Under the pieces are notes generated by a model, which was given only the letters and a program-made list of their open reading frames with translations, was not told the DNA's origin and did no database searches. A stretch of DNA of 64,000 nt, from positions 1,504,001 through 1,568,000 of the forward strand of contig CP000069.1 of NCBI GenBank assembly GCA_000002445.1, written 5' to 3'. Numbering within the stretch: the first letter of the stretch is position 1; each line of letters begins with the position of its first letter. The position numbers and the translations under genes were made by a program. Shown piece by piece: positions 1,382-41,040 of this stretch. Source of the DNA: Trypanosoma brucei. Lineage: Eukaryota.

Positions 1382-1469
1382 AACTTATAAATTTCTTAAA
1401 ATTGAACAAAAATCTTTTACAAATAACTCTTAAATTGTTATTCTAGAAAAAAATTATAAAAAAGTAGCT

Positions 1470-2925
1470 CCTTGTTAGTGACAAAAGAATTGCTTCCTGT
1501 GGTGTTTGTAGTTTTTGCATCATTCTCTGCTTTCACACCCTCTTTAAATTTGCATTTACCTTCGCTGAAGTCGCAGTCTGAATCGTTTTTGCATTCACTT
1601 TCTTCTGTGTCTGGCTTGCATTTTTCTACTGATACGGTTGTTGTTGGTGCGGCTTGTTTCTTAAGCGAGTCGCGGTGACGTTGCTCATAACATGCCGCGA
1701 GGGCTGCGTGTCCATCTGCATCGCTTGCCGCTGCGGTTACGGTTTTCTTGGAAATTTCGTCGTTTACTTTGTAGTTTATGTGTTTTTCTTTTAAGGGGTT
1801 TATTAACCTTTCTCGTAAACTTCCTTTGTCAGTTCCAAATAACTGTTTAACTGCGTTTTTCTTATGGTCTTCACTTCCATCTTTTTTGATATTACCAGTT
1901 AACAGCAGTTCTGCTACTTTCTGGGCTTCCGAGTCAGTCAGAAGGTCGGCTATGTCCTTGTCTAAGTAGCTGTCGATCGTAGCTACTTCATTGTCGCGGA
2001 TTTCACAAATAGCTCAGCCGACCGACTTGTGTGTTAGGGCTAGTTTCTCCGTGCCATAAGCCTCCCCCGTATTTTCAACACACTTTTGGTTTGGTCCATC
2101 TGTCGCCCCAAGTTGGTGACGGTCCAATGTCGTTTCGAGCGGGACCGTTGTTACTGCTGTTATACCGAGCGCGTTGTTCGTAGCCCTGCTAGGTGCTGTG
2201 TCTGAAGCGCTGCAAAACCCGCCATTGAAGTTGTCATTGTTTGTTGCTAGGCTGCCGATGTGGAGCGCTTCTCCTTGGATTGTTATGCTGTCGCTCGCCT
2301 TCTCTGGGACCAGTTTTATTGCCTTGAGCGCTTTTAGGTTGTCCGCAGCTGCTTGCAGCTTAACGTTGTCGGCACCGATGCTGGAGCAGGTTTCGTGTGT
2401 TGCAGGTTGTGTGGTGATCTTGAATCCGCACAATTTTGGCGTCCCCGCACTTGCGCCTATGCTGGATGGATTTGTTCCTGTGTGCTGGCCTATTGTTGGT
2501 TGAGGAGGCGCCGTACCGCGGTGGAGCACAAGTCTCGTCTGTGCCTGAAGAGCTTGCAGTACGGCTAGTGCCGCTGTCAACTTGTCGGCTTCGACGCCTT
2601 CGGTTATTGCTAGCGTCAGTTGCCGGCTCGTTAGCGTTGCTAGTGCTTGGTACTGCGCCCGGGTGCCTGCTTCTATTTCACCGCACATCGCTGCCGCTAA
2701 CAGAGCTGCGTCGTTGGCTCTGTCGCGCATCTGGTCCTTTGCTTTCTTTGAGCTTTTCTTGGCGTTGTCAATGACTTTCTCTAGGAAAACTATCTCGTGG
2801 CAGGGCTTGGTAGCCGCTGCTTCGTAGGTTGTGGCTATATCGCCCTGCCCATGGCTTTCCGTAGCACCTATTAAAATTTGTATTAGTACGAGAGTCGCCT
2901 TGGTATACTGATTAGGTTTGGTCAT
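1470..2925 (-). pseudogene. VSG: VSG pseudogene (A-type N-domain; frameshifted C-terminal half)
   Basis: ORF 2014..3003(-) contains MTKPNQYTKATLVLIQILIGATESHG (signal peptide) followed by an Ala-rich helical N-domain with early Cys (TKPCHEIVF). The reading frame breaks at 2014. The C-terminal domain lies in other frames (CKFKEGVKAENDAKTTNTTGSNSFVTNKELLF...) and its GPI signal is degenerate. Confidence 0.75.
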
Positions 2926-4574
2926 TGTTGTAGTGCCTGACTTGCGTCGTGTCTGCTGTGGCGTGTGCGCTAGCTTTGGGTTTCTGGGGTTTGCTTGGCT
3001 CACGTATCGTCACTCTCCTTTTCTTGTAATGTGATGCCAGTATTGTTGCTTACTTGCCTTGCGTCTCCTTTGTGGCGGCGTCGCTGTTGCAGCTGTTAAA
3101 GCATATAAAAAATGAAATTTATTGCGAAACAGCGGTATCGTGTTGCTATTATTTTGCTTGTCTCTTTCTGTGATTGCTCCACTGTCCACTATTGTAGAGT
3201 GCACATTGCATCTGGACGCACTGTCTTTGTATTTTCATTTTTAATTAACTTATAAAATATATACCGCTGTTACCACTTCCAGTGATCTTCGAAAAAACCT
3301 TGCTCCTCCGTGAGGTAGCGTCACATGTCCATGTCATTATGAACAATGTTTTATATAACTCGTGTTACTAGTTTCATCTATGTTTGACTGAAGTATGATT
3401 CATGCTAGGCTTTTTTGTTGCTTTCATTTTGTTTTGTCTTTTTTCCACTTTTTTTTTCGTTTTGTATGGAGGTAAAGCTGGAGTCATTTATACCGCTAAT
3501 CTAGCAGCAAGTTTCATTTTATAAGCTGGAGTTGACATTATGACCTTCATTCCTTGGTTTCTTAGTATTCTCGTATTTGTCTTGGTCATACTATTTTCTG
3601 TGCTCTGGGCTATCCGCTCAAAATCAAAAATCGCTTTATTCCTTCTTATGCGCCAAGCATTTTGCGTTTTTCACTATTATTTCATTGCCTTTAAAGTTAA
3701 CGACACAGAAAGCTGTGGGGGTAAAAAAGATTATTCAGGAACGGTTATTTTGCTGAGCTCCGTTGAGTGTAATGGTCTTAATTGAACTCTTTCATGTACA
3801 GTCGTCTTTATTCATATAAATGTGCCTTTAAGGTTCAATTTTTACATGCTAGGTTGGCGTAGTTGCAGAAAAAACTAAAAACGTCACTTCCAACTAACAA
3901 CATTATCATTTTTGCCGATTATGAGAGGCACTGAGACTCACTGTCTCTAAACTATCTTGTAAATAAATAAATCTTTTATTTGCAACTTTTCGTAGGTTTT
4001 TTGACGTATTCTTTGTTGTGGTTCTGGTAGGACTAAAATTGCTGCTGGTTTTGGCACTTTGTGCAACGTTGTTCTTGGTCGCCCATTGCTTATTGAGGCG
4101 TCGCTTCAACGATTTGGTTAGATCGTGTAAGAGACGATGTTTTATACACTTGTATGGTTACTATTAGCAAGTGTCTCCCTTTTTAACTACTTTGTATCCA
4201 TAATATTTTTATGAGTGGAAATGACGCATTCTTGAAGAATTATTGATAGTATATTGGTAGTAACCTTTTTTTGTTTCTTCCGCTTCCGCCTCTTTAGGTG
4301 TATTGTTGAGACTCAGTTTGGCTTGTACACAATGGACTAAGTTTATACCTCATTCCTCCAAAACATAATCTTCTCATGTATGGTGATTTCCACCACCATA
4401 ATAGTGTTTCCAAATGCACATTTTCCATTCACATATATTTCTTTCTCTGTATTTCAGCATTTTCTTCAAAAATATTTATAATCTCTGTCCTTCCCTCTAA
4501 CTTACTCTCATTGTCCACATGCCTTTGTTTTAAGTGCTTCTATTTTGACCCTTTTCTGCGGTGATCACTCTGCT

Positions 4575-4790
4575 CTTATCATAATATTAGTATATAAACA
4601 TACTCATAACACAGTCACAACACCCACTTCCATCACTATTACTATAACTATCATTATTATTATTATTACTATTACTATTATTATTATTACTGTTTTTATT
4701 ATAATATTCGTATGTACACTCTCACAACACACTCCTTTCATTATTTTTATTATAAATACTATAACACTAATTAATATCCACAAAATAAAC
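4575..4790 (-). repeat. 70-bp repeat block (about 2-3 copies)
   Basis: Two cores (cttatcataatattagtatataaacatactcataacac and tattataatattcgtatgtacactctcacaacac) separated by an (ATT/ACT)n tract. Confidence 0.85.
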
Positions 4791-5043
4791 TAAATAAACA
4801 AAATTATAATATTACTTTCTTTTCATACCCTATCGCCACACTACTTTCCACTAAGGGGAAAATTTCATACTTGGCTTTCATATTTTTCTTATTTATTAAG
4901 GTTTTACTAATTTAAACAATTCTCATTTAAAAAATCTTAAAAGTATAAAAATTTCGCAAATTATAGAAATTTATCTCAACGTAGGAAATTTCGTAGATTT
5001 CACAAATTGAGAAAAAATATTTAACCAATAATTCTTAAAAGTT

Positions 5044-6516
5044 TTATAGAGCTAAAAATTCCAGCAAAATAGGGGCCTTGTTAATGACAAAAGAATTGCT
5101 TTCGGTGGTGTTTGTGATTTTACCATTAGTCCCTGTTGTCTCTGTAACTTTAGCTTCGCATTTTCCATCTTTGAATTCACAGCCAACCTTTTCGTTGCAT
5201 TTGCCCTCGTCAGTTTCTCCCTTGCATTCTTTGTTATTTTCCGGTGCTGCTGCTGTGACTGATTCAACTTTCTTCTGCGCTTTCTCTTTTCTGTATTGGT
5301 CTCCTAAACAAAAGCCTATCGCTCTTGCATAGTCCTCGGTACCACTTATCGACACTATACCTTTGTTAACGTGTTTGTCGCCGATTTTGAAATCTAGTTT
5401 GTTTGCTTCCATGTCCTTTAAGAATTTGTCATGTACTGTTGTTTTTCCTTCACCTACAAGTGCTACTACTGCTTCCTTTTGTTTGTCGGTGTCTGGGAGT
5501 TCCGCCGTTGGTCCAGCTGTTATGAGCATTGCGGCTTCTTGCACATCTTTTTGTTCCTTTAGGGCGTCCATAGTTAACTGGCTCAGTGTCTCTGGTTCCG
5601 TGACGGTCTGCCTGCGGCCATTGCATATGGCATACCCTGCTGCTTTGGCTGTTACAAAAGCTTTCTTGTCGGAGTCCTGGTCGTCTTCACAGTCTGTACC
5701 GTCTCCTTTGCTTTTTATCGTGTTTTTAGTTGGCGTATTCCAGTCGGCTTTGCGGGCGAAGTTTGTTAGGATTATGCCTTTAGCAACGCTTCCAAGTTTG
5801 TTGCTTCTGTCGCCAGTGTCGACGCATGCTATCTTCTTGTTGTGGGTCGCCGGCGTGGCCGAACCGTAGTCGCCTTTGTTGCCTATGTCGGCTGCTATGT
5901 CTGTTAATTGAAAAGCCTTGTCGTGGATCGCCTGATACGAATCAAGGTTTTGAACGTTGTTTACGTCGTCGTTGATGGCAGGGTCATTGACGAGTGATGA
6001 TTGGCAGCCGTGCTCGTTCTTAGGTGGCTGTGTGATCGTTACACTACATGATTTAGCGCCGGCCCCGCCTATTAGATCGGATTTCTGCGCTGAAGCATCG
6101 TGGCTTATTGTCAAGTCGCCTTTGGTGTTGAATGCGATTGCTGCCATGAGCTGAGCGTTTCTCCGTTTTAGAGTTTCGATACTAGCTTTTAGCTGCTTTA
6201 CAGCGTCGGCATTTGCTTCAGTGGCAGCCGCTCTAGAACTCCCTATTGACGCTAGCATCCGGGTCGCTTTTTTGGTCTTATGGTCTGTTGCTAGACATGC
6301 AGCTGCGTCCAGTGCTTCCGCTTCCTTGAGTAATTGACTTTTCTTGGCTGCCAGTCCATCTATTTTCTGCTTGAACGCTGCTGCCAATTTGTCGTTGAAA
6401 GCCACCTCGTGACAGGCTGCTTTGACCGTTGTTGAGTCTTTGTTGGTTGCTATTGGCTGCGTTGCCACCATCAGCAATATTTCGACGTACGGAAGCTGAA
6501 GTTGAAAGTGGTGCAT
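5044..6516 (-). CDS. VSG: Variant surface glycoprotein, apparently intact (A-type N-domain, about 490 aa; ORF extends upstream to 6621)
   Basis: Uninterrupted 525-aa minus-strand ORF. The probable start is MHHFQLQLPYVEILLMVATQPIA at about 6516. Ala/Lys-rich helices and conserved Cys are present. The C-terminus is ...CEFKDGKCEAKVTETTGTNGKITNTTESNSFVINKAPILLEFLAL, a classic VSG GPI-anchor signal (S + 17 residues). A 3'UTR follows. Confidence 0.85.
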   Translation of the reverse strand: MHHFQLQLPYVEILLMVATQPIATNKDSTTVKAACHEVAFNDKLAAAFKQKIDGLAAKKSQLLKEAEALDAAACLATDHKTKKATRMLASIGSSRAAATEANADAVKQLKASIETLKRRNAQLMAAIAFNTKGDLTISHDASAQKSDLIGGAGAKSCSVTITQPPKNEHGCQSSLVNDPAINDDVNNVQNLDSYQAIHDKAFQLTDIAADIGNKGDYGSATPATHNKKIACVDTGDRSNKLGSVAKGIILTNFARKADWNTPTKNTIKSKGDGTDCEDDQDSDKKAFVTAKAAGYAICNGRRQTVTEPETLSQLTMDALKEQKDVQEAAMLITAGPTAELPDTDKQKEAVVALVGEGKTTVHDKFLKDMEANKLDFKIGDKHVNKGIVSISGTEDYARAIGFCLGDQYRKEKAQKKVESVTAAAPENNKECKGETDEGKCNEKVGCEFKDGKCEAKVTETTGTNGKITNTTESNSFVINKAPILLEFLAL

Positions 6517-7904
6517 CGCAGTTGGCTCCTGTTGTTCAGCGGTAGGGCTTATGCCTTTCTTTTGTACTTGTAGATCCTTTAAAGTTTGGAGAAAATACGG
6601 TTGGGGAACTAGTTCTGTCAATTTCTGCGTGTGCTTATGGTCCTATTTGTTGCCAGTAGCCTTTCCTAGCCGACATAGCTTGTAAAGATGAAATTTCTGT
6701 TAAAGGTTTTGTTCACACGCAGGCTGGAGGCGGTGCCCCATGTCGCGCTACTCGTTGTTTCAGTCTTTCTGGTTACGGGCTGGCGAACAGGCAAAGCGAC
6801 CCTTCTCTAATTATTTTTCCACACTTCCTACGCGAGACGGGTTTCTGGCCTTTGCTTTTTGTTCCTTCTCCGACTAATTTGGTTTTATTGAGTCGAGTTT
6901 TTAGATGAGGAACTGAGTCGATTGTAGAGAACGTCTCGATTAAAAGTTGTTTTAAACGTCTGTATGGCTTTGACTAACTGGTTCTTGAAGGGTGTTTGAT
7001 TTATTAAGTTGGTTGTTCTGCCTTCTTAAAATACGGGGGCGTTGATATGTATACTTGTTTTCACCTCTCTGAATCATATTTGCTTCAACTCTTCCTTGAC
7101 TCTTTTAAACTCCGTCCCCCTGCCTTCCATTTTTTTGGTTGCCTTCAGCCACAAACTTTTCGCTGCGCTACTGACCTCGTTGTTTAAGTTTTTAATCGTG
7201 TACAAAGAGATTCAGAATAGCATAACACTTACTACTTATAATTTCAAGTTATGATTTTCTATATTTATGGCATTTATTGTTGCGTAAATCCAATTCTTTT
7301 ACCATTGAAAATACCACACACATTTCTGCACTTTAAAATTCAAATCTTGTGGTTTGTTATTGATTCTAGTTTATGGAAATTCTCATAAGTATGCTGGTTA
7401 TCATAAGCAGGTGCTGTTTCTTCTTGTAGAATGAAGACCCTTTTGTTCACACTTGTGATTATCTGTTATCTTTTTAGTTGGATACCACTTGGGAATGTGT
7501 AATATCGGCGCTAACAGCGCTTTTATCCCTGCACTCTCTTCGCTTTTGCGTGCTTTTAACAGTGGCCTCATGATTACCCTCAAATGTATTACTTTCTCTT
7601 TAAAAGGCTTTACTGTTTGGCCTTTGAATCAGTACAGTAGTGGGGGTGTATCATTTCTTACTTGATGCTCTTCGTAAACATCTTCTGGTGTTTTGTGGTG
7701 ATGTGTTTTTATTCTTTACGGCTATTTTTGTCTTTATCTTTTCTCATTAACTGTTTCTGCACATATCTTGTTTATCTTTAATAGGAAAATAATATCATCT
7801 ACAGTGCATGATGGTGTCTTTAACTTTAATTTCCTTTTTCTTTTTATATAATGACACATGAAGCCTTTATTGCGTTCCAAATTGCACATATATCATCTCT
7901 TTCA

Positions 7905-9171
7905 CTTTCACACACTTACTCCTTTGGCATTTTTTCCGTGGTGTTTATTGCAGTCCGCCTTTTTTTCTGCAGTATCTGCTTTGATTTCTGCTGCTCCCAC
8001 CGCCAGGGTTACTTTGACGGTAAGTTTGACCTGTGCCGCTAGGCGCTTTGCGTTTGCCTGGGCCGCCTGTAATACAGCAGTTACGGATGCTGTCTGTTTG
8101 GTGTATCGGTTCCTTGCTGATAACTGCCGCTCCAATCGCATTACATCTTGGATCCATTTCACTTTTCTCAACGTTGCTTCTGGTTCGCTGGAGTAATTTT
8201 TTAATTGTACGCAGATCCAGCCGCTGCTGTCGCCGTTGCAACCTGTTGCGTGGTATTCCCCTAGGTAGCCGTGGGCTTTATCTGTTTTGATTAGACTTTT
8301 CAGCTGCTTTATAGCTGATGACAAGTTGGCCAACACGAATTTGGTTGCTTTCACTGAAGCACAGATTTTGGCTATAGCTTGCATTCCACCCCCCGTTGGT
8401 CCCGACGATTAAGGGTTCCACGCAGCAGCCCCATCTGCTTGTTTTGTACACACCGCAGCTACCGCAGACCCGCCATTGTCCTTCTCGCAGATGCACGCTA
8501 ATGCCGCAATCGCGGTTTTGACTTTTTTGTTTGCCTCCTCAGCTTTGCAGACTTCTTGTCTGTTTGTGGCTTGTGCGGCCTGGCCGAATGCATTTATGTC
8601 AGTTACGCTGTTTTCGTTGGCTGATCCCGCCCCATACACAATCTCTTTCAGTTTTGTTTGGATCGCGGTCTCGGATAATGCACCCGCTTCCGCAGTTGGC
8701 TTGGTGAGTGCTTGTATCGCTGCGGCCGACCCTGCAGCGATTGCGGCTAGATGCAGTGCTGCTGCTTCTTCTTGCTGCCCAGTAAGTTAAAGGATACCGG
8801 TTTCTCTTATTTTTTCATCTAACGGTTCCCTGTGAAGTTTTTTGAGCGCAGCGATCCAGGTGTCCCAGTTTTTGTAACCTTTGTCGCTTTGTTTCGCTTC
8901 GGTAGGGTTTTTGTAATAGGCTCTGGGCTCCTCTGTTTTGATGAATATTTTTTTCAAGTTTCCGGTGTTACCGACATATTGAGCGCTTGGATGAATCTAT
9001 ATGGCGTGTTGAAGTCAGCTGGTGCGTCTGGTAGCTTTCTTCCTACTTCTTCCGTCGCTGCAAACCTGCACAGCGCCGCGTGTTCCACCCTGTGCTGGCC
9101 ACTTACTATGTTTGGCCTGCTGTTGGGTAGGCTACCCACGTGCATAGTATCGCTACGCATAGCAAGCGCAT
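7905..9171 (-). pseudogene. VSG: VSG N-terminal-domain fragment (B-type), no C-terminal domain, internal frameshifts
   Basis: Minus-strand pieces include MRLLCVAILCTWVAYPTAGQ (signal peptide), ...YKNWDTWIAALKK..., ORF 8409..8639 with ALACICEKDNGGSAVAAVC, and ORF 7908..8384 with AHGYLGEYHATGCNGDSSGWICVQL. These are B-type VSG N-domain motifs. It ends at 7908 with no C-terminal domain, GPI signal or 3'UTR 16-mer. Confidence 0.75.
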
Positions 9172-9857
9172 GTCCTTAAGCTATGCTCGAGTGATGTGTG
9201 TGTGTGTTTGTGATATTTTAGTGAGTGCCGCAGCGCTTGTTTATTTTGTGGACTAGATGTTCAACGGCTTCGAGGGCAAAATAAAAATTGCGTATTGCGA
9301 TCGTAGAGACTATAAATGTAGAGGGGCCGATTCTCTTTTTTTTCAGAGCAGATCAGATCGGTGGTTTCATATGTGCTAGCAACACCAGAGGAATGGCTGC
9401 CTTTTGCCTCACAGTTGCAGTCAATTGTATGAACTAGTAGGTATCATGAGGGTACTCGTCAAATTTTGATACTGATGCTTGTTGTAATGGCAAATTTACA
9501 GATTGACGTACCAGATCACGGTTAGGCCGATACCGTTAGATAGGTCTATTTTTTTTGTGGTTTCCCCCTTATGTTTTTGTATAAAAACCGTGTATACTAT
9601 ATTATACTTCGATTAGGTATAACTTATTCCTCTTATGTCTGTGTCTTTCATATACACAAGCTGCAAAAAGGTCTTTTTAAACACGGAAACACGTGGAAAT
9701 TATAAAAATATTTCAGCATAAATTTTAATTTTCAATAAATGTCCATTTTTAAATATAATATCATAGTGTTTTAATATATTGCATTAATTTCTGACTCACT
9801 CTGTCTCCCTGTACCTCCAACATACAGTACATACTCCGATAAGTGAAACTTCAGACC

Positions 9858-10265
9858 TTACATTTTGTTATTTCTTCTGCTTGGCGGCAATTCTGCGCCG
9901 CATGGTATTTCAATAAACAAGTAACGTTGTTTCTCATCACGATCACCATTTAAGCTTTTAAATTTTTTGTGATAATATGACTTTGGTTTGGTCCGATGCA
10001 TTTTCAGACAGGGTAATTTTGGTAACGAAACTTCCTTCCTTCTTGCTTTTGTTTTATTAATACGGTACGTTAGTTTTGCATCAGGGAAAGCTTTTATGTG
10101 GATTACTCGCTTTTTCAAAGGCCTTAATGTACGGCAGGTATTCCATTGCCGAATTGGATGGTCATTGACAGTACCTTTTTCAACTTTATAGAGATCCTCC
10201 ATTGGTCCATGTGCAGTAATTCTTATCCTATTCACGCTAATTTCCTCACACACTTTAGTCAGCAA
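9858..10265 (-). CDS. Hypothetical ORF (135 aa, Lys/Arg-rich), unknown; possibly non-coding
   Basis: Minus-strand ORF between a VSG fragment and the 70-bp repeat. I recognise no motifs and see no other copy in the window. Confidence 0.2.
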   Translation of the reverse strand: MLTKVCEEISVNRIRITAHGPMEDLYKVEKGTVNDHPIRQWNTCRTLRPLKKRVIHIKAFPDAKLTYRINKTKARRKEVSLPKLPCLKMHRTKPKSYYHKKFKSLNGDRDEKQRYLFIEIPCGAELPPSRRNNKM

Positions 10266-10549
10266 AATTCGCTTATGGCATCACCGCGCAAAGGGTAAAA
10301 CCATCATTTCCTCGTTCCATTTTGCTGTGACTATTCATCATCTTTATCTCCATATTCTTTTTTATTATGATTCCTTAGTCATTTTGTGTCTGACATTGTG
10401 TATATTTCATCAGTTTATCTTGTTATATCATAATATTCCTTATCACTTCCTCTATTCTTTTTTCACTACCTTATCTACTACCATTTCACCCTCGCAACTT
10501 TTTGAACTACCTCTATTTTGTATTTGAACGTATTCTTAACAGCTACTGC

Positions 10550-10660
10550 TCTTATTATAATATTATTATATACACATTCACTACACTCTCATTTTATTAT
10601 CCCTATTATTTTAACTATTAATATTATTATGACCGTAACTAATATCCATAAAATAATTGA
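10550..10660 (-). repeat. 70-bp repeat (about 1 copy)
   Basis: cttattataatattattatatacacattcactacactc plus TTATTA tract. Confidence 0.75.
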
Positions 10661-13874: not shown

Positions 13875-16013
13875 CTAGATAGCGGAATATCCTGTTGGTA
13901 TTGTTGGCCCTATCGCTGCATGTTGCGGGTTGCACCATCGGCACTGTGGAGGCACACTCGGGTTGATCTTTCGCAACATCCATCCATAGTGTCTTGAAGA
14001 CACAACCCGAAAGCGTGCCCGTGCCGTTTCTTCTTCCCTCGTCAGTTCTTCTTTATGTTTTGTTGGAAAGTGGTTGCCCGTGATACCAAACCTATGAGTG
14101 TTCTCATGGACTTCTTCCGACCTAAGCACTCGCTTCGCATAAGCAATGATGTCGGGGATCCATGTGTCTCGCAACTGTGGTAAATCTGCGGCCTTTTTGG
14201 CCATTTCATCGCAAACCTCATTCCGTTTCATGCCACAATGGCCAAACACAAATTGCAGTCGGATACACACCTTTCTTCTCTGAACTTGAAGCAGAAGCCT
14301 CCATAGTCGTCTTAGAATTGGGTCCGTTACGGCTAGGGGGCCTGTCTGCAGTGCTGTTAACATTGACAGCGAGTCAGAGAAGATGGACAACCTGCTCGGT
14401 GTGCTTCTGTATGCCGGAAGCCATTTCAGCAGCCTTTGCAGTCCTATCTCTAATGCTACGCATTCCGCTCTGTAACTGCATGAGAGTTCCCCTGCTCCAG
14501 TTTTGGGTGCACAAATCAGCGTGTTGCTTCTGTAGAGCAGGGCAGCTGCTCCGGACTTCTCACCGAGGGACATGGGTCCATCAGTCCACAATTCGTAGTG
14601 CTCTCGCCGCGGTGGCTCCTTCCCCCTCCGTGCAAAATGCCGTTCAATCCACTTTTCGGAAGCCTCCCTTTTGACATCGTCAGGGTCATCAGCGCACACA
14701 GGCTTTATCTGCGTGTGAAATATCGGTCGGCAGCTGTGGCGGAGCGTCGATGTCTCTAGTGGGTGCTCGCGTGGCTCAATGTGGAGGTGGGGATAGGACC
14801 GCATGATGCGGGAATGTAGGACTCTGACTGGATGTTTGCTGTGGTATACTTCTTCAGCACTGCGCCGTAAACATCCGCCTCGTGACTCACACATCAGCAT
14901 GAATTTCATGCTGCGCACAAGAGTGGTCGTCTTGAGTGGCAGGAGGTTTGCTTCCAGCAGAGAGTTCTCTTTGAGCTTCCCATGTTGTATGCCGGCTATG
15001 ATGCGACTGGCTTTGTGTTGTGCTGCTGCAAGGAGGTCGCGACTTCGTTCCGAAGCGTCCCAGTACCATACCTCAATGCCATACATGGTGTGTGCCTGTA
15101 CGAGTGCTAGATAAAAAGCTCTCAGTACTTGTCTTCTTGGCTCCCATGTAGAAGCTGAGATGGCTGCTATCTGCAGTAGTCTAAAATCCATCTTGCGTCT
15201 CGTTTCTGCAGCATGTGTTGCCATCCCCTGCAGACACTGGAATGTTACTCCTAGAAGCTTCGGTGTCCTGCCAGCTCCTATTCTTTTGCCGTCCAGTTGT
15301 AATGTAAGGGGGTGGCGCTCTATACACCCGAAGAGTGTGCACATTGTTTTCGCTACATTGACAGACATGAAGTACTCTTTTGACCACTGTAACACCACGG
15401 TTAGGCCGCATTGTAGTGTGTGGTTGATGGCATCCCTCTCTGTGTGCCTCGCAAGTAGCGTCAGGTTGTCTGCAAAGAATCCGTGCTGCAGTAACGGCAC
15501 TTCTGCAAGGCATTGGCTCAACGAGTTCATGACAATAATGAACATGATTGGACCAAGGACAGTTCCTTGTGGCACTCCTCGCTCAAATGTTCTGCTTCTG
15601 GAGAGCTTCTCCTTGAATCTCACTCTGCCAGTTCGGTTACTCAGAAATGATACGCACCACTTCACAATGTGGGGTGATACCTTCATTCTGTGCATTTCCC
15701 TCGCAATTTTGTCGTGGTCTACTGTATCAAATGCCTTCTCGTAGTCGACGAATACAGCACCCGTACGATATTGGTGCGTGGGGCGGCAGAGGGCAGCGCG
15801 GACGTGCAGGAGTTGTTCGAGCGTTGAGCATCCGGGGCGAAAGCCTGATTGCTGCGGCGTCAGCTGGGACTCAACAGTGTCTCTAAGCCTCGCGGCAATT
15901 ATGCGTTCCATGACTTTGCAGAGACAGCTCGTGAGCGTCACAGGCCTGTAAGAATCGAGGTCCTCCGCCTTTTTCCGGCCTTCAGGATGGGGATGATAAC
16001 ACCAGTCTTCCAT
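13875..16013 (-). CDS. ingi reverse transcriptase - RNase H ORF segment (712 aa, uninterrupted up to the truncation point)
   Basis: RT motifs are present (e.g. FVDYEKAFDTVDHDKIAREM..., FADNLTLLARH as the YXDD-like region). RNase H follows (ELWTDGPMSLGEKSGAAALLYRSNTL...). The ORF ends a few codons past the point where ingi homology stops. Confidence 0.85.
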   Translation of the reverse strand: MEDWCYHPHPEGRKKAEDLDSYRPVTLTSCLCKVMERIIAARLRDTVESQLTPQQSGFRPGCSTLEQLLHVRAALCRPTHQYRTGAVFVDYEKAFDTVDHDKIAREMHRMKVSPHIVKWCVSFLSNRTGRVRFKEKLSRSRTFERGVPQGTVLGPIMFIIVMNSLSQCLAEVPLLQHGFFADNLTLLARHTERDAINHTLQCGLTVVLQWSKEYFMSVNVAKTMCTLFGCIERHPLTLQLDGKRIGAGRTPKLLGVTFQCLQGMATHAAETRRKMDFRLLQIAAISASTWEPRRQVLRAFYLALVQAHTMYGIEVWYWDASERSRDLLAAAQHKASRIIAGIQHGKLKENSLLEANLLPLKTTTLVRSMKFMLMCESRGGCLRRSAEEVYHSKHPVRVLHSRIMRSYPHLHIEPREHPLETSTLRHSCRPIFHTQIKPVCADDPDDVKREASEKWIERHFARRGKEPPRREHYELWTDGPMSLGEKSGAAALLYRSNTLICAPKTGAGELSCSYRAECVALEIGLQRLLKWLPAYRSTPSRLSIFSDSLSMLTALQTGPLAVTDPILRRLWRLLLQVQRRKVCIRLQFVFGHCGMKRNEVCDEMAKKAADLPQLRDTWIPDIIAYAKRVLRSEEVHENTHRFGITGNHFPTKHKEELTREEETARARFRVVSSRHYGWMLRKINPSVPPQCRWCNPQHAAIGPTIPTGYSAI

Positions 16014-17661
16014 GCAGGCGGCACGACTCCCGTTCGTAGGCTCTCATTGAATAGCCTCACAACAACATTCAGCGCTGTTCTGCCGAGATGTTGCAGTGCC
16101 TCGTTGTATAAGCAATCAGGTCCGGCTGCGGATCCACTAGGTAGCAGTTTGATCGATCTCCGTAGTTCAGCCATCGTGATGGGACTGAACTCACTCGCTA
16201 TCGTCTTTATTGGTGCCGGTGGGTGTGAGTCGGGGTGCCTTCTTGCGCGGGAAGAGTACAGTTTACTGAACCTCTCAGCTTGACGGTAGTCCGTGATGGC
16301 CGCGTTATCAACAAGTACAGCCGGTGTGGTTAGTGGTCGTGGCGCATATACCTTCTTGACAATGTGCCAACTGCAGCGGTCTGACACCGCAAGTCTGGAG
16401 CATAGCGTGCTCCATCTCTTCTTTGTGGTACGGTCCAGGATCTGCTTACGCGTGGCTACCAACTTTTCCCTTCGGTGGGAGGGTCCGCATCCAGCGATCT
16501 CTTCATCGAGTTTCGCGAGCTCAGGTGTCCAATGTGGTGGCGTTGCTCTGCAGCCACGGGGGACGGAGACCTTCGTCGCAATGCGGATGGCGGAGCTCAA
16601 TTTCTGTTCCAGGGTGTTGACATTCTTCTCTCTACCAATTTTCCTGCAGAGCTCGTCAACCTTGAGACGGAAATTCCTCCAGTCAGCTTTTAGCCATGCG
16701 TACATGGGCTTTCGAAGCCGCGGGCAGCTCAGTGCATCTGTGTCGTCTCCAAAGATAACGTCGAAAAATATGTGATGGTGATCGCTATCGGGAGAATACA
16801 GCGATGTCCACGTGTACACTGTGCAATTCCTTGACAGTGTCACATCAGGGGTGGACTCCCCGTGGTGGCGCGCGTACCTGGTGCACTCACCAGTGTTGCA
16901 GACCAGAAACTGGTTGTCAATGCACCACTGTGTGAGGGTTTCACCCTTGGTATTTGGTGGGCTCGCGCGATCCCATGCCAACGCGTGTGCGTTAGCGTCT
17001 GCACCGATGAGCTGGGCACCGTCAGTCGTCAGAAGCGTATCTAGGTCAGTTGCCGTGAAGGTGTGTTTTGGTGGGATGTATGCCGACGTGACAGTCAGCG
17101 CCGTTCCACGTGCAAGGTGAATTGTTGCATGCACTTGTTCAATGCGACCAACAACGGCCATACCGGTCTCGACTGGTATGTCCTCTCACTAGTATTGATA
17201 CACCACCTCCTTTGCAGTTACGAGCTATTCCGTGATGTTGGTAGCCAGCAACGCTAAAGCAAGCCGCCTCTCCAGGCGTCATCCTTGTCTCGCTCAACAG
17301 ACAAAAGGCGATCCGCTCATCAACAAGGGTTTTGTGGAGTGCTAATCTCTTTCCTTGAGATAGTCCGGCGCAGTTCCACTGCATCCCGTGAAACGACAGG
17401 CAGGGATTCTCTTCCACATCACCGGACAGCAGCATCTTAGTGCGGATGATATACTGCTGATGGCACGCTGGCACGTGCTCAGGGACCGACAAATGAAAAA
17501 CGGTGTCCCAGCAAGACGCTGCTGATCCCTGTGCTGTATGATGCCGTAGCCGGAGCACAGCAGTGTTCCCTATGAAAGGAACGCTGCTGGCTCTTGGCTT
17601 CCCCCGATGATACGGGGTACTGGACCCTGGCACCACGTTGAGGTGGCCGGCATCGCCAGGG
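13892..17661 (-). mobile_element. ingi: ingi non-LTR retrotransposon, copy 1; 5' end intact, 3'-truncated (about 3.77 kb of about 5.25 kb)
   Basis: The 5' end (reverse complement at 17600-17661) reads GATGCCGGCCACCTCAACGTGGTGCCAGGGTCCAGTACCCCGTATCATCGGGGGAAGCCAAGAGCCAGCAG. Collinear and about 97-98% identical to the copy at 41740-46988. Homology stops abruptly at about 13892, after ...QHAAIGPTI in the protein. The zinc-finger region and 3' RIME half are absent. Confidence 0.9.
15938..17161 (-). CDS. ingi ORF segment (N-terminal region, 407 aa; follows the APE-like endonuclease segment present in the overlapping ORF 17139..17750)
   Basis: 407-aa ORF that is near-identical to the ORF at 42239..43462. 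The overlapping ORF 17139..17750(-) carries FHGMQWNCAGLSQGKRLALHKTLVDERIAFCLLSETRM, which is endonuclease-like. Confidence 0.8.
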   Translation of the reverse strand: MAVVGRIEQVHATIHLARGTALTVTSAYIPPKHTFTATDLDTLLTTDGAQLIGADANAHALAWDRASPPNTKGETLTQWCIDNQFLVCNTGECTRYARHHGESTPDVTLSRNCTVYTWTSLYSPDSDHHHIFFDVIFGDDTDALSCPRLRKPMYAWLKADWRNFRLKVDELCRKIGREKNVNTLEQKLSSAIRIATKVSVPRGCRATPPHWTPELAKLDEEIAGCGPSHRREKLVATRKQILDRTTKKRWSTLCSRLAVSDRCSWHIVKKVYAPRPLTTPAVLVDNAAITDYRQAERFSKLYSSRARRHPDSHPPAPIKTIASEFSPITMAELRRSIKLLPSGSAAGPDCLYNEALQHLGRTALNVVVRLFNESLRTGVVPPAWKTGVIIPILKAGKRRRTSILTGL

Positions 17662-18159
17662 TACTCACTTGATCTCAACCCTCCGCATTTAAGTCGGCCA
17701 CCATATTTCAAACTATATGTTACACCATTTCTTACGCAGCATCTATTCACTTATATTTGACATAGGAAGCACAAACCACCCCGTATTATTTCTTTCTGTG
17801 CCGCTTTGAGCTTTTGCGTGTCCATTTGTTTCTTTCTGTATCTTCTTCCCTATTTTTGTCAACTGCATCACTCGCTTTGAGTAACACAGAGACTCTATTT
17901 GACATGTAACAACTAATTCTGTCTCTAACCACTATATTTCTTCACCTTCTCAATGTGCATCATGGTACTCATCACCATGTTTATGTACGAAAATGTTCGT
18001 ATTCCCTATTCTTTTTCTTTTGTATCTCTTATTTTCCTTCAATAACATCAAACGTGCTCACAGTCTGTCTTATTACTTCTTCTACTCACTCATTTACTCA
18101 AATTATGCCATTGCAATTATTTTAAACTCCTTATTTTGGGGGTTATTTCAGCTGGCAGC

Positions 18160-18290
18160 CCTCTTATTTTAATATTCGTATACACACTCACAACACTATC
18201 CTAGTATTATCATTATTGGCATTTCTATATTATTATTAACACTACTTCTACTATAGCCCTAACTGATAGCGACAGAATAACGAAATAATC
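18160..18290 (-). repeat. 70-bp repeat (about 1-1.5 copies)
   Basis: cctcttattttaatattcgtatacacactcacaacactatcc ... tattattattaacactac. Confidence 0.8.
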
Positions 18291-19914: not shown

Positions 19915-20469
19915 GTTAGTAAATTTATGGTTTTGTTTATGTTGAAATGCGTAACGTTTTGTGCAATTATAGTGGCTTGTGAGTAAGTTTGAATGTCACA
20001 GAAACCTTATCGGTTTGTGGGGTACTTTAAGACTTTAAGGCTAAAACATTAATTTTAATTAGAAATTACCGTGGAAGGTGAAGTTTCGTGATCAAACATC
20101 TTTGAAGTACCTTCGGAATCACATTTTATAAGTCTTAAACAAATACCCTTCTTTAAAAGCGTAAATACAAATTTTGTCATACGTGAAATTAAATTTTTTT
20201 CAACCTCTCGTATAAGCTCAAATTTTTCTTAACTCTATCGTACTAAATTTCCTCCTTTTAAAACACGCGTAAAAACTAAGATTTTTTACAATTAACTTCG
20301 TTTTCTCCTCTCATGCAATAGTGTACCATTGAAAAAATAAATGGCGCCTTTCAAATTTCATCACTATGCTGAATAGAAAAGAGTCTCTCCTCATAATCTA
20401 ATCCAATCATTCCTCACTTCAAAACAAATCTTTGTCAAACAGCTTCTTTTTGAGTTGCACTACAAATAA

Positions 20470-21060
20470 GAAATGGCTTGTAAATACTCTTATCTGACTG
20501 CCATTCCTCACTTCCCTTTAGTAACTCTCCAAAAGCATATTCAAATTTTCTTAAACTCCCATACTCTGGCTATTAAACCGCCAACACTAAGATACGGTTT
20601 TCCACTAGGAGGTGATTTTAGTAAATGGGGTAATTTTTTATCCTCTTCTTTTCTGTAGCCCACATTGAAAAACCAGTAACATCTCTGCATATGCTCCTTG
20701 TGATCTGAGTTCATAATCAGATTCAACTGAGGAGCATAACACTCTGATGTTGTCATGAACATAATAGGGGAAATATGCTTCTCTTTTACTATATCTTCTT
20801 CACCAAATCTATCTTCATTATCAGCGCTATTTTGTACAAAATATTCCACAGCATTTTTATACTTATTTCCATCACTAACAATAACAGCAGATCCATTTAC
20901 AGTTATTACAATATCCTCATCACCTGCATTATGCATTTCCAAAAATTCCATAACTCATCTAGGCCTCTTAACATGACTATACAAACCTTCCATAGCAATT
21001 GTAATAATTTTAACATGGCTTATTTAGTACTTAATATTAGCCTGCACCATCCTTTAGTTG
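20470..21060 (-). repeat. Conserved VSG-upstream module, copy 1, carrying small ORF 20541..20951(-) (136 aa, acidic, ends ...GGLIARVWEFKKI)
   Basis: DNA and protein similarity to 24240-25040 and 47590-48130. Shared protein motifs are VITVNGS/VIV.DG.KY, MNSDH.EHM.RC and IARVWEF(K/R)KF. Confidence 0.6.
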
Positions 21061-22029
21061 CATGAGTTTGAACCACAAAAACAAACACTCTGGAATTCTT
21101 AGGCTTTTCATCTGTAATATTTACTTCTTTATAATGTTTAATATATGTTGAGCTTAAACACGCAAAATGTAATAGTAGTGATAATAATAAAATCGAAAGT
21201 TACTACATTTTATTCCCTAACCTATATTTAAAATTTTGAAAGAGATATAATAAAAAATTTAAAAAAGAGTAAGTTTCATCACTAAGCTTTTTGGTTAATG
21301 AAAACGTGTTTACGTGTATGAGTAAGTAATGCCTTGATATTGTGATTATATAGCTTCTGAAATGTGCCTATTTAGTGCATTAATTTAATCTTTTGGCGTG
21401 CATTAAAGATTCCTGTTTTTAGTAGTTAGCCGCGGCAACATACAGTGCAGTTCTTCCATGCACAGTCCTTCTCTATGAATTTATCTGGTAATTACAAGTA
21501 GCAGGCTGAACTGATAGGGACAGAAATAATAATAATTTTACAACCCTTCTGCGCAACTCCTCTCAACCATCTAATTTAGGCATTATCCTCTAACCAACAT
21601 GGATTTATGAGCCACCGATACTCGATTCTACAATTTTCTTCGTTGTGGCACATATTCATTTTTGTGCCAAATGTGCAGCACAATCACATCTTCTGCCGTT
21701 TACTTTGTGCCAAACTCGTGAGCATTTCGTTGCAAAACTCTCTCTTTTATTTACTTTTTTACGTTCTGTTGCTACTCCTGCGAATTACGTTGATAATTCA
21801 TTTTGCCTGCTCACGGAACTCTGATTATCGCCTACTTTTGGCTTCATCACGTTCCTTTGTATAATCATGAACATAAACATATTTCTGTTTGAAACTGTAT
21901 ATTCCACAACCCTTTCTTCCTTTTTTATTTTTCTCTTACAAACTTTCTCACTTAATAAGTTACTTCCATTGCACCTTTGCAATTATTTAGGTGCTTCCAT
22001 TCTTCCTCTTCATATATTATTCACCAGCA

Positions 22030-22125
22030 ATCTTATTATAATACTCGTATATGCACACTCACAACACTCCTCCATCATTATTATTATCATTATCATTATA
22101 AACGTAACTAATATGTATAAAATAA
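22030..22125 (-). repeat. 70-bp repeat (about 1 copy)
   Basis: cttattataatactcgtatatgcacactcacaacactcc plus (ATT/ATC)n. Confidence 0.8.
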
Positions 22126-24239: not shown

Positions 24240-25040
24240 CCCACTATTTATACCAAGTGAGATTTAATAGGATCTTTCTAGTCTTTTCCTTCCAGGATAA
24301 CGCACGTCCTTGAAAGTGAAGGAACGCAGCTTTTCTGAAGGAAGTTTCGTAATGGACTGAGAAAAACTGATCGTCGTAATCTAATCCAATCAACTCTCTT
24401 GGTAAAACTAATCTACCGCTTACTTTTGCTTCCCGTTTCACACTCCACAATAGCAACGGAATATAAATACTCTGTTCTGACCACCATTTCTTCCCGTCTT
24501 CTAATAACTCTCCAAATACATATTCAAATTTTCTTAATTCCCACACTCTTGCTATCAAACCATCACCACTAAGATAAGTTTTTCCACTAGGAGGTGATTT
24601 TACTAAATGAGGAAAGTTTTTATCCTCTTCTTTTCTGTGCCCAACATTAAAAACATAATATCATCTCTCCATATGCTTCTTGTGATGTGAGTTCATAATC
24701 AGATTCAACTAAAGTGCATAACATTGTGGAGTTGACACGAATAGAATTAAATAAATTTTTTGTCCCTTTACAATATTCTCTTCATTTTCTGCATAATTTT
24801 GTATAAAATATTCCACGGTATTTTAATATTTTTTCCATCAGAAATAATAACATCAGATCCAAAAAAAGCTATTATAATATCCTCATCACTTGCATTTTGT
24901 ATTTCTAAAATTCCATAACCCATCTAGGACTTTTAACATGACTATACAAACCTCCTATTGTAATTGTTATAATTTAAACATTGCTTAGTTTGTTACCTAA
25001 TAATATTCTACACCATCCTTTAGTTGCATGAGTTTGAACT
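24240..25040 (-). repeat. Conserved VSG-upstream module, copy 2 (ORF 24244..24558(-) begins MIARVWELRKFEYVFGELLEDGKKWW...)
   Basis: Nucleotide similarity to 20470-21060 (e.g. ...taactctccaaa.acatattcaaattttcttaa..tcccacactct.gctat.aaacc... and ...ccataac.catctagg.c.tttaacatgactatacaaacc...). The ORF is frameshifted relative to copy 1. Confidence 0.6.
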
Positions 25041-26039
25041 ACAACTACAAACATTCTTGCCTCCTTAGGATTATTATATGTTGTGTTTTTTGTTGTTTAT
25101 ATTATTACCCTGAAGAGATACAGCTCTTCAAAACACTAAATGTAATATAAAATGTAGCAGTAAAGTTGTTAATTTACCGATTTTTTCCACTTAACTGTAG
25201 AAATTTGAACGAGAGAAAAGCAAGAATTTTAGAAACCTTAAGAAAATAATTTAGTTACATCACTACCTTAATTATAAAAAAGGGTTTACGCATATAGTAA
25301 GTAATCACTTGATATTTTTGTAATACAGCTGCCAAAGGGTGCACACTTAATGTCTGCAGCTTATCTTTTAGCATGCATTTACCCTTTTTGTTCTAGAAAT
25401 TAGATTATAATACACCTGTGACTGTACACCGCGTGGACATTGTCTGTAAGTTTATCCACATTTCTTCGCCATCCATTTCTATATAAATGTTTCAACTGAA
25501 TATACCGATAGGTTCAGATATACTAAGAGTTTTGCTAGTTTTCTTTGCCAACTAACTAAGCCCGAAGGTTTCGTCATGAGAAGAACATCAGCGTTTCTTC
25601 ATGAACTTTTGCTACCATTTTCGTTACTAATATCTTTGATATAGCATCTACACATTTTTGTATCAAATACGGAGCGTCAAATACTTCAGATGTATCACTT
25701 TCTTCAGTACGTTTCTGCAGCTATTGCCTTTGTTTCTTTCTGCTCTCCATTCCGTCCCTTTCGTTCTCTACCATTTTTTCATGGCAATGTAGCGACTCCT
25801 TTAGTCATGTATATTAGACTCTGTCTCTTCTTAATAATCTTCTCATCATTTTCTTCTGTGAAATGATTACCGTATTCACGTCTCGTCATGAGACTATACA
25901 TATTTTATCTCTCTTTCTTTGATTTTCTGCATCCCTTCTATAATTATCATCTTACAAACTCTTCAACTCCCTCTTTACTACGGTTTCTTTTCCACTATTT
26001 TAAGGTCTCCTACTACTCTTGTGCATTTAGTCTTCAATA

Positions 26040-26135
26040 CAATTTACATTACAATATTATTATACACACACAGCACCATCATAAAAAACATCTCTATTAT
26101 ACCCCTAACTAATATACATAAAATAAACAAAATGA
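26040..26135 (-). repeat. 70-bp repeat, degenerate (about 1 copy)
   Basis: acaatattattatacacacacagcaccatc ... acccctaactaatatacataaaataaac. Confidence 0.6.
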
Positions 26136-28165: not shown

Positions 28166-28679
28166 TCTTTCAAATTTTCTGTAAATTTTCTCAAGAATGC
28201 TTTTAATAAGAGCAAACATTATACAAAACTATACACTTAGCCGTTTTCTCTCTATATTGTGTTACCGACGCCTTGACAAAATAACCATGAGCATTGTGTA
28301 AATTTCTACACCCTTGGCATCACTGTGGGCACTTTGATTTACTATAAAACTAAAAACCACACTCCCGACCATTTCTGTAGTAGAATCTATCCACTCTTTA
28401 GTTAGAGTTAGTGCAAAACCTCCTCCTGCATTCTTTTCTGTTTTTCCACACCTTCAGCGGATACCCTAGCAACCCCATTTGGCTCGTGCAGTAGAAAATA
28501 TCTCTTCATGTTTGTCCTTCTATCATCTAGTTGTGTGTAATGACGCCAAACGTCATGCTTATGTTTGAAATTTCGCATATTCCATTTCCTCCTCCCACAC
28601 TCTCCCGTACTCACTTACTCCTAATTCACTTTAGCCTTTGTTTCAAATGCCGCACTTTCTCCACATTTAGTTTTAATCA

Positions 28680-28770
28680 CTAATATTATTATAATATTTG
28701 TATATACACACTCACAACACTATCCTATTATTATTACTTTTAATATTACTATTCCAACAACAATTTATCT
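28680..28770 (-). repeat. 70-bp repeat (about 1 copy)
   Basis: taatattattataatatttgtatatacacactcacaacactatcc plus TATTATTA tract. Confidence 0.8.
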
Positions 28771-31324: not shown

Positions 31325-31435
31325 TCTTATTATAATATTCGTATATACACTCTCACAACACTCTCATATCATTATTATTAATATCATTATTACAATACTA
31401 ATTATTATTCATATAATAAACCAAATTAGAGTAAC
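31325..31435 (-). repeat. 70-bp repeat (about 1 copy)
   Basis: cttattataatattcgtatatacactctcacaacactc plus ATTATTATTAATATCATTATTA. Confidence 0.85.
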
Positions 31436-40939: not shown

Positions 40940-41040
40940 TTTTCATTATATTATTAGTACATACACATTCACAATACTTTCCTACTACAACTTTTTCTGT
41001 TATAACTCAAACTTATATTCACATAATTAGAAAAAAATTA
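40940..41040 (-). repeat. 70-bp repeat (about 1 copy, diverged)
   Basis: cattatattattagtacatacacattcacaatacttt. Confidence 0.7.

What the first reader, a model, noticed from the sequence alone, without database searches (positions are those of the whole stretch)
5044..10660. The only fully intact VSG (5044-6516) has no adjacent 70-bp repeat; a truncated VSG N-domain (7905-9171) sits between it and the repeat
Every other VSG here has its own 70-bp block 0.5-2 kb upstream. For the intact gene the nearest block is 3.9 kb away at 10550-10660. A B-type VSG N-terminal-domain-only pseudogene lies in between, with a signal peptide and no C-terminal domain, GPI signal or 16-mer. This tandem arrangement of a partial and a complete VSG behind one 70-bp repeat could be a remnant of a segmental duplication or conversion event. 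It places an N-domain donor immediately upstream of a functional gene.
Basis: seen in the sequence. Interest (0 to 1): 0.5.

Follow-up and report, generated by a model that had tools for sequence, protein, structure and literature searches.

The report
Two VSG cassettes fused by deletion
In this silent trypanosome surface-antigen gene array, a deletion of roughly 0.5-0.9 kb appears to have joined two neighbouring gene cassettes, leaving a broken gene stump upstream of a complete but atypical gene that lost its own recombination repeat; this is ordinary decay of such arrays.

Summary
The window is a Trypanosoma brucei VSG array with genes on the minus strand. The 5044-6516 protein is 100% identical to a TREU927 entry.

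Between the 70-bp repeat at 10544-10618 and the pair at 4570-4765 lie two VSG-like pieces and no other repeat. Sensitive profile scans found no cryptic 70-bp repeat and no VSG 3' flank in 6517-10543.

The upstream piece (7905-9171) is a B-type, VSG3-like pseudogene. It has two frameshifts and several stops, and it ends about 11 residues after the first C-terminal-domain cysteine.

The downstream gene is the only ORF here with both a leader and a GPI-signal-like tail, but it is not clearly functional:
- The TREU927 entry names it "VSG, atypical".
- It is VSGsur-like.
- It carries a glutamate in both the leader and the GPI tail.
- Its 16-mer has 5 of 16 mismatches.

The two VSG pieces are unrelated. 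Their upstream spacers are paralogous (56% identity over 540 nt). The compound unit (5974 bp) is about two average cassettes minus 0.5-0.9 kb.

Best explanation: an interstitial deletion fused two canonical cassettes. This is a known kind of feature and of low interest.

The parts
10544..10618 (-). Single 70-bp repeat heading the compound unit. Conserved repeat-flanking sequence continues to about 10701.
   Evidence: nhmmer with a profile built from the other 14 copies gives E=4.6e-10. Core match AGTGTAGTGAATGTGT. Sequence read.
9172..10543 (-). Spacer of the upstream cassette (1372 bp). Its core, 9773-10325, is paralogous to the spacer of the downstream gene.
   Evidence: nhmmer pairs 10325-9773 with 7814-7262 at E=5.3e-9. 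Identity is 56% over 540 columns, z=9.6 against shuffles. The 135-aa ORF at 9858-10265 has no Pfam family.
7905..9171 (-). B-type (VSG3-like) VSG pseudogene with a signal-peptide-like start, two frameshifts and several in-frame stops. It is truncated about 11 residues after the first CTD cysteine. It has no GPI signal, 3'UTR or 16-mer.
   Evidence: Three-frame translation. Pfam VSG_B E=1.2e-39. PDB VSG3 6elc E=8.3e-21. Alignment to full-length B-type VSGs shows it ending at CNKHHGKNAKG, against CDKHHGNKDNC in P0018. No 3'-flank profile hit and no 16-mer.
7895..7915 (.). Inferred deletion junction, where VSG homology ends and spacer sequence begins.
   Evidence: Protein homology to B-type VSGs ends here. 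There is no CTD-like translation downstream in any frame. Resemblance to the 70-bp core is not above background. The exact breakpoint is inferred, not shown.
6517..7904 (-). Spacer of the downstream gene (1388 bp). It lacks a 70-bp repeat and appears shortened at its 5' end by about 130 nt relative to its paralogue.
   Evidence: No 70-bp hit at E<=100. The homologous core starts 91 nt from the junction here, against 219 nt from the repeat in the upstream cassette. Its length falls within the 578-2167 bp repeat-to-ATG range of other cassettes. A 49%-identical T. equiperdum relative has its repeat 1436 bp upstream of the ATG.
5044..6516 (-). Complete 490-aa VSG ORF, VSGsur-like A-type, named 'VSG, atypical' in the identical TREU927 protein entry. 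It carries a glutamate in the leader (YVEILLMV) and in the GPI tail (ILLEFLAL).
   Evidence: 100% identical to XP_845636.1. PDB VSGsur 6z79 E=5.9e-29 over residues 25-488, with the tail aligned to LLLAFLLF. No Pfam family at E<=0.01. Relatives have A where this leader has E.
4766..5043 (-). 3' flank of the complete gene. The 16-mer equivalent is degenerate: TGCGAAATTTTTATAC at 4943-4958, 5 of 16 mismatches, the worst among the 14 cassettes aligned.
   Evidence: The 3'-flank profile, built without this copy, hits 5135-4758 at E=2.4e-33. No 16-mer within 3 mismatches. Aligned 16-mer columns.
4570..4765 (-). Two 70-bp repeats that head the next cassette downstream (the VSG at about 1400-2925) and close the compound unit.
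   Evidence: nhmmer E=9.2e-15 and 4e-10. Sequence.

Best explanation
The stretch 4766-10618 is two ordinary VSG array cassettes joined by an interstitial deletion. A cassette consists of a 70-bp repeat, a spacer, the VSG, and a conserved 3' flank.

The deletion is estimated at about 0.5-0.9 kb. It removed four things:
- most of the C-terminal domain, the GPI signal and the 3'UTR of the upstream B-type gene;
- the short intergenic piece;
- the 70-bp repeat of the downstream cassette;
- roughly the first 130 nt of the downstream spacer.

The upstream gene was, or later became, a frameshifted pseudogene.

The downstream VSGsur-like gene kept a full ORF but lost its proximal upstream homology block. 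The consequences for that gene are inferred, not shown. Whole-gene duplicative conversion into an expression site would need a tract starting about 4.0 kb upstream, carrying the stump along. Otherwise the gene would be used through coding-sequence homology with family members, by segmental (mosaic) conversion or 3' donation. There is no functional pairing between the two VSG pieces.
For: **Shown**
- There is no 70-bp repeat and no VSG 3' flank between 6517 and 10543, under profiles that detect every other cassette.
- The fragment stops abruptly about 11 residues into the CTD, with no CTD-like reading downstream.
- Each VSG piece is preceded by its own spacer of about 1.4 kb. The two spacers are collinear paralogues (nhmmer E=5.3e-9, 56% identity, z=9.6). 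The unit therefore holds two cassette bodies, not one long spacer with an insert.
- The shared core begins 219 nt after the repeat in the upstream cassette but only 91 nt after the junction.
- The distance from the downstream ATG to the junction is 1389 bp. This lies within the 578-2167 bp repeat-to-ATG range of other cassettes. It is close to the 1436 bp of a T. equiperdum relative.
- Repeat-to-repeat periods are 2405-4021 bp (mean 3260, n=12), computed. The compound unit is 5974 bp, about two periods minus 0.55 kb.
- Spacer composition next to the junction is like repeat-proximal spacer.

**Background**
- Almost all array VSGs carry upstream 70-bp repeats (PMC7897489).
- Array pseudogenes are used by segmental conversion through coding-sequence homology (PMC12137147).
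Against: - No ancestral or allelic copy of the locus could be obtained, so the deletion is inferred from architecture, not observed.
- The breakpoint has no diagnostic microhomology that could be tested.
- The upstream spacer also lacks the repeat-proximal homology that most other spacers share. The absence of that block from the downstream spacer is therefore not evidence of truncation. The 130-nt offset could be an indel.
- The spacer similarity is weak at 56%.
- The size estimate rests on averages across variable cassettes.
Confidence: 0.7

Rival explanations
1. The fragment arrived by insertion or partial gene conversion. A piece running from a VSG start, or from its 70-bp repeat, to the start of the CTD was copied into the long spacer, or over the 70-bp repeat, of a pre-existing single cassette of the complete gene.
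For: - VSG gene fragments are a recognised class in T. brucei arrays (Berriman et al. 2005, Marcello and Barry 2007; own knowledge, papers not held).
- The N-domain/CTD boundary is a plausible conversion end-point.
- Without the fragment the unit would be 4707 bp, not far above the largest regular period of 4021 bp (computed).
Against: - Two collinear paralogous spacer cores sit one in front of each VSG piece. A single cassette would be expected to have one.
- No donor-like relative of the fragment exists in the window (at most 27% identity).
- The spacer upstream of the fragment has a normal length (1373 bp) and starts at a genuine 70-bp repeat.
- A conversion that overwrote the downstream repeat cannot be told apart structurally from the deletion model.
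Confidence: 0.15
2. The arrangement is a remnant of a segmental duplication or conversion involving the VSGs themselves. It matters functionally because it places an N-domain donor next to a functional gene.
For: - The two spacers are each other's best match in the window, which is compatible with an old tandem duplication of cassette backbone.
- Neighbouring cassettes elsewhere in the window also share diverged spacer sequence (20388-21404 against 24371-25379, 72% identity).
Against: - The two VSG pieces belong to different structural classes and have no detectable similarity.
- Mosaic formation relies on coding-sequence homology (PMC12137147), so the stump cannot donate to its neighbour.
- The neighbour is named 'atypical' and has a degenerate 16-mer.
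- Proximity within a silent array is not known to affect donor choice (own knowledge).
Confidence: 0.05
3. The junction is an assembly artefact. The reference assembly collapsed or mis-joined two reads or clones in a repetitive array.
For: VSG arrays are repetitive and hard to assemble, as noted in PMC4858185.
Against: - The junction joins unique CTD-start sequence to unique spacer sequence, not repeat to repeat.
- Nothing else in the window is similar to the flanks at blastn sensitivity.
- This could not be tested directly here.
Confidence: 0.03

Closest known systems
Canonical silent VSG array cassette of T. brucei (70-bp repeat(s), spacer, VSG, conserved 3' flank with 16-mer)
   Same: - Both halves carry recognisable cassette parts: a 70-bp repeat with spacer and N-domain upstream, and a spacer with a full VSG and 3' flank downstream.
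- Orientation, spacing and composition match the other 14 or so cassettes in the window.
   Different: - The upstream half lacks a CTD, GPI signal and 3' flank.
- The downstream half lacks its 70-bp repeat.
- The unit is 5974 bp, against 2405-4021 bp for regular cassettes.
VSG gene fragments and array VSGs without 70-bp repeats in the TREU927 archive (Berriman et al. 2005; Marcello and Barry 2007)
   Same: - The archive contains many pseudogenes with stops, frameshifts and deletions (PMC3467770).
- 'Almost all', but not all, array VSGs carry upstream 70-bp repeats (PMC7897489).
- From memory, roughly a fifth of archive VSGs are fragments and under a tenth lack a repeat. These figures were not checked, because the papers were not held.
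   Different: Nothing essential. This locus shows both defects side by side, which suggests a single event caused both.
VSGsur / VSG13 structural subgroup of A-type VSGs
   Same: - The complete gene aligns end to end with VSGsur (E=5.9e-29, residues 25-488), including the CTD cysteines and the NTT-SNSFVI-K-AP-LL tail.
- VSGsur and VSG13 define a structurally divergent subgroup (bioRxiv 10.1101/2020.06.04.134106).
   Different: - The match is distant (104.6 bits over 464 aligned residues; identity not computed).
- The leader and the GPI tail each carry a glutamate.
- No structure was predicted here, and nothing is implied about suramin binding.
VSG pseudogenes upstream of the active VSG in bloodstream expression sites
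   Same: A VSG remnant lies between a short block of 70-bp repeats and the main VSG, as in BES1. There, two repeat regions (70.I with 3 repeats, 70.II with 39) precede VSG-2 (PMC4858185). That a pseudogene lies between them is from my own knowledge.
   Different: - This is a silent array locus.
- There is no second repeat block between the stump and the gene.
- There are no ESAGs and no telomere.

Membership tests
VSG array cassette (downstream unit, gene 5044-6516) | One or more 70-bp repeats within about 0.5-2.2 kb upstream of the start codon | tested here: not met
   There is no profile hit at E<=100 between 4765 and 10544. The nearest repeat is 4028 bp from the ATG. The junction patch is not above background.
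VSG array cassette (downstream unit, gene 5044-6516) | Conserved 3' flank with the 16-mer TGATATATTTTAACAC | tested here: inconclusive
   The flank as a whole is recognised at E=2.4e-33. The 16-mer equivalent has 5 of 16 mismatches, against 0-3 in the others.
Functional (fully typical) VSG | Signal peptide, N-terminal domain, cysteine-containing CTD and hydrophobic GPI signal, all uninterrupted | tested here: inconclusive
   The ORF is complete and aligns over its whole length with VSGsur. However, a glutamate interrupts both the leader (YVEILLMV, where relatives have YVAILLMV) and the GPI tail (ILLEFLAL, against LLLAFLLF). The identical TREU927 entry is named 'VSG, atypical'. Function cannot be tested with these tools.
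B-type VSG (fragment 7905-9171) | VSG_B N-terminal domain with the GYLG...C.G...G.CV motif | tested here: met
   Pfam PF13206 E=1.2e-39, covering profile positions 80-349 of 352. The motif HGYLGEYHATGCNGDSSGWICV is present. PDB VSG3 6elc E=8.3e-21.
B-type VSG (fragment 7905-9171) | Complete gene: uninterrupted ORF with CTD, GPI signal and 3'UTR | tested here: not met
   Two frameshifts and several stops. It ends after the first CTD cysteine. No 3'-flank hit. No 16-mer.
Segmental duplicate of the neighbouring VSG | Detectable sequence similarity between the fragment and the N-domain of 5044-6516 | tested here: not met
   BLASTP best E=2.4 over 8 residues. tblastn of each piece against the window does not hit the other.

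The most novel reading that the evidence does not exclude
The fused unit behaves as one long duplicative cassette. Activation of the VSGsur-like gene from the repeat at 10544-10618 would carry the B-type stump and both spacers into an expression site. That would seed an upstream VSG pseudogene like those seen in bloodstream expression sites.

Alternatively, loss of the proximal repeat restricts this gene to use by mosaic formation or 3' donation. A GenBank VSG (ARB50651.1) is identical to it over residues 1-379 and then follows another family member. Its provenance is unknown.
Probability: 0.12. Interest if true: 0.3.

Novelty: already known. Interest (0 to 1): 0.12.

Why it matters
It matters little beyond bookkeeping. 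The locus is a clean local example of how VSG arrays decay. One deletion can create both a VSG fragment and a repeat-less neighbour. This bears on how activation probability is assigned to individual archive genes.

For anyone modelling donor choice in TREU927, this atypical VSGsur-like gene should be scored differently from its neighbours:
- it has no proximal 70-bp repeat;
- it has a degenerate 16-mer;
- it is therefore expected to appear late, or as a mosaic or 3'-donated product, rather than as an early whole-gene switch.

No new kind of element or mechanism is implied.

Tried and rejected
**Searches that found nothing at the locus**
- Cryptic 70-bp repeat in 6517-10543: a profile built without the local copy, run with nhmmer --max at E<=100, found nothing.
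- Remnant of a VSG 3' flank, CTD or 16-mer after the fragment: the profile and the pattern search found nothing.
- GT-rich patch at the junction (AGGAGTAAGTGTGTGA) as a remnant of the repeat core: its Smith-Waterman score of 16 is reached by 9.5% of background windows, so this was rejected.
- Relatedness of the fragment to the neighbouring gene: none.
- Rfam across the window: no family at gathering score.
- Pfam on spacer ORFs 9858-10265, 7401-7571 and 20541-20951: nothing.

**Relatives and synteny**
- Close relatives of the fragment: the word-indexed protein search returned nothing at E<=1e-10, probably because the alanine-rich query drew poor candidates, so that search was wasted. The exhaustive search with the last 158 residues gave at best 33% identity over the full query, or 42% over a shorter 97-residue stretch.
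- Synteny in other strains: exact-protein look-ups failed for the window protein, its TREU927 twin, VSG-762 and ARB50651.1. Only a 49%-identical T. equiperdum relative had a contig. That contig gave a cassette-spacing comparison but no orthology.

**Literature**
- The Marcello and Barry 2007 statistics could not be read.
- The provenance of ARB50651.1 was not found in the long-read paper.


Full report
**What the window is**

All large VSG-like ORFs lie on the minus strand. They are punctuated by 70-bp repeats and by the 3'UTR 16-mer. There are 17 matches to the repeat core against 0.7 expected by chance, and 14 matches to the 16-mer against 1.1 expected.

The protein of 5044-6516 is 100% identical to XP_845636.1/AAZ12077.1. 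That entry is named 'variant surface glycoprotein (VSG, atypical), putative' from Trypanosoma brucei brucei TREU927, on a 1,618,915-bp record. The window is therefore a silent subtelomeric VSG array, most probably from that genome. The chromosome number was not verified.

**Check of the observation**

I built a profile from 14 repeat copies, leaving out the copy at 10544-10618, and ran nhmmer without filters.

- It recovers repeats at 1127-1205, 4570-4765 (two copies), 10544-10618, 18155-18229, 22024-22100, 28679-28753, 31320-31393, 34709-34785, 37114-37191, 40934-41008, 52673-52748, 56213-56354 (two), 59354-59519 (two) and 61976-62050.
- It also finds weak partial copies at 26045-26071 and 49076-49124.
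- It finds nothing between 4765 and 10544, even at E<=100.

A second profile covers the GPI-signal region, the 3'UTR and the run-up to the next repeat. It detects all 15 cassettes at E<=2.5e-33, including the left-out copy behind 5044-6516 (E=2.4e-33). It gives no minus-strand hit in 6600-10625.

A GT-rich patch at the end of the fragment looks a little like the repeat core. Its local alignment score is matched by 9.5% of background windows.

**The upstream piece, 7905-9171**

- It opens with a signal-peptide-like MRLLCVAILCTWVAYPTAGQT, followed by two stop codons. It continues in a second and then a third reading frame, with further stops.
- The conceptual protein hits Pfam VSG_B at E=1.2e-39 and the solved VSG3 structures at E=8.3e-21.
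- Aligned with full-length B-type VSGs, it ends at '...ADCNKHHGKNAKG', against 'ECDKHHGNKDNC...' in P0018. That is about 11 residues after the first cysteine of the C-terminal domain. About 80-100 residues are missing.
- No frame downstream reads like a CTD.
- It has no close relative. The best in-window match is 27% identical. In the exhaustive protein library, searched with its last 158 residues, the best match is 33% identical over the full query and 42% over a shorter 97-residue stretch.

**The downstream gene, 5044-6516**

This is the only minus-strand ORF in the window that runs from a leader to a GPI-signal-like tail.

- The other long ORFs end inside the CTD (53090-54562), end in a frameshifted tail (62374-63798), or end in a tail containing charged residues (35037-36536).
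- It has no Pfam family at E<=0.01.
- It aligns over residues 25-488 with VSGsur (6z79, E=5.9e-29). The alignment includes the CTD cysteines and the tail 'NTTESNSFVINKAPILLEFL', against 'NTTGSNSFVIKKAPLLLAFL' in VSGsur.
- VSGsur and VSG13 define a divergent structural subgroup (bioRxiv 10.1101/2020.06.04.134106).

Three features fit the 'atypical' label:

- The leader has a glutamate where relatives have alanine (YVEILLMV against YVAILLMV).
- The hydrophobic GPI tail also has a glutamate.
- The 16-mer equivalent (TGCGAAATTTTTATAC, 4943-4958) has 5 of 16 mismatches, where the other cassettes have 0-3.

'Only fully intact' is therefore correct for the ORF, but it overstates likely function.

**How the arrangement arose**

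Several measurements point to two canonical cassettes fused by a deletion.

1. *Each VSG piece has its own spacer.* The spacers are 1372 and 1388 bp long. They are collinear paralogues: 7814-7262 pairs with 10325-9773 at nhmmer E=5.3e-9, with 56% identity over 540 columns and z=9.6 against shuffles. Each is the other's best match among 15 spacers. A single cassette with an inserted fragment would be expected to contain one such core.
2. *The shared core is offset.* It begins 219 nt after the repeat in the upstream cassette but only 91 nt after the junction. The same shift appears against two other spacers. This suggests the downstream spacer lost about 130 nt or more at its 5' end.
3. *The junction sits where a repeat is expected.* The distance from the downstream ATG to the junction is 1389 bp. 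This is inside the 578-2167 bp repeat-to-ATG range of the other cassettes. A 49%-identical relative in T. equiperdum has its repeat 1436 bp upstream of the ATG.
4. *The unit length fits two cassettes minus a piece.* Regular repeat-to-repeat periods are 2405-4021 bp (mean 3260, n=12), from the coordinates. The compound unit is 5974 bp, about two periods minus 0.55 kb. Adding up what is missing gives about 0.66-0.93 kb: the rest of the CTD at 210-270 nt, the 3' flank at 250-340 nt, a repeat at 75-190 nt, and about 130 nt of spacer.
5. *Composition fits.* Sequence next to the junction resembles repeat-proximal spacer.

The deletion itself is inferred. No allelic or ancestral copy could be retrieved.

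**Consequences (inferred)**

- 70-bp repeats supply upstream homology and promote access to archival VSGs (PMC4858185). Almost all array VSGs have them (PMC7897489).
- Without a proximal repeat, whole-gene conversion of 5044-6516 would need a tract starting about 4.0 kb upstream, which would copy the stump as well.
- Alternatively the gene can contribute through coding-sequence homology, as array genes and pseudogenes do in segmental conversion (PMC12137147).
- A GenBank VSG (ARB50651.1) is identical to this gene over residues 1-379. It then switches to residues shared with Lister 427 VSG-762 and has a frameshifted tail. That pattern is what 3' donation or mosaic formation would produce. Its origin could not be established, so it is only suggestive.

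- The two VSG pieces are of different structural classes and share no detectable similarity. The stump is therefore neither a duplicate of its neighbour nor a plausible donor for it.
- Only the spacers hint at an old duplication of cassette backbone.
- The arrangement is best seen as ordinary array decay.

**Comparison with what is known**

- VSG pseudogenes carrying stops, frameshifts and deletions make up most of the archive (PMC3467770).
- Gene fragments and a minority of repeat-less array genes were described with the TREU927 genome. This is from my own knowledge of Berriman et al. 2005 and Marcello and Barry 2007, which could not be read here.
- This locus belongs to those known categories. 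Its only particular point is that one event plausibly produced both defects.

**Verdict**

- Novelty: already known.
- Interest: low.

Noticed in passing
window 13892-17667 (- strand) and 41734-45508 (+ strand): Two non-LTR retroelement copies (ingi-like) lie in inverted orientation, 98% identical over 3776 bp and about 24 kb apart. The minus-strand copy was scanned and encodes reverse transcriptase, RNase H and endonuclease domains; its inverted partner has ORFs of matching length. Each sits inside a VSG cassette, between the 70-bp repeat and the VSG.
   Followed up: partly
window 20388-21404 and 24371-25379: The spacers of two neighbouring cassettes share about 1 kb at 72% identity (nhmmer E about 1e-139 over about 1.85 kb). 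This points to an older tandem duplication of cassette backbone in this array.
   Followed up: partly
protein P0001 (GenBank ARB50651.1), compared with window 5044-6516: A database VSG is identical to the window gene over residues 1-379. It then carries substitutions shared with Lister 427 VSG-762 and has a frameshifted GPI tail. It looks like a mosaic or 3'-donated derivative, or else a paralogue. Its provenance was not found.
   Followed up: partly
window 4943-4958: The only full-length VSG ORF in the window has the most degenerate 16-mer of the 14 cassettes aligned (5 of 16 mismatches). Several frameshifted pseudogenes keep perfect or near-perfect copies, for example 62214-62229.
   Followed up: yes
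window spacers downstream of most 70-bp repeats (for example 52672-51787 with 4569-3676, and 59353-58666 with 56212-55547): Most spacers share a weakly conserved block that starts about 20-150 nt after the repeat, at matching offsets. The two spacers of the compound unit lack this block and form their own pair.
   Followed up: partly
window 26045-26071 and 49076-49124: These two cassettes have only degenerate partial 70-bp repeats (profile E=0.3 and 0.63). Repeat erosion is therefore not unique to the locus under study.
   Followed up: no
window 1447-2877 and 5047-6516: The complete VSGsur-like gene and its downstream neighbour, a pseudogene, are distant relatives (23% identity over the full length, tblastn E=4.5e-19). 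Neither has a Pfam A-type hit.
   Followed up: no
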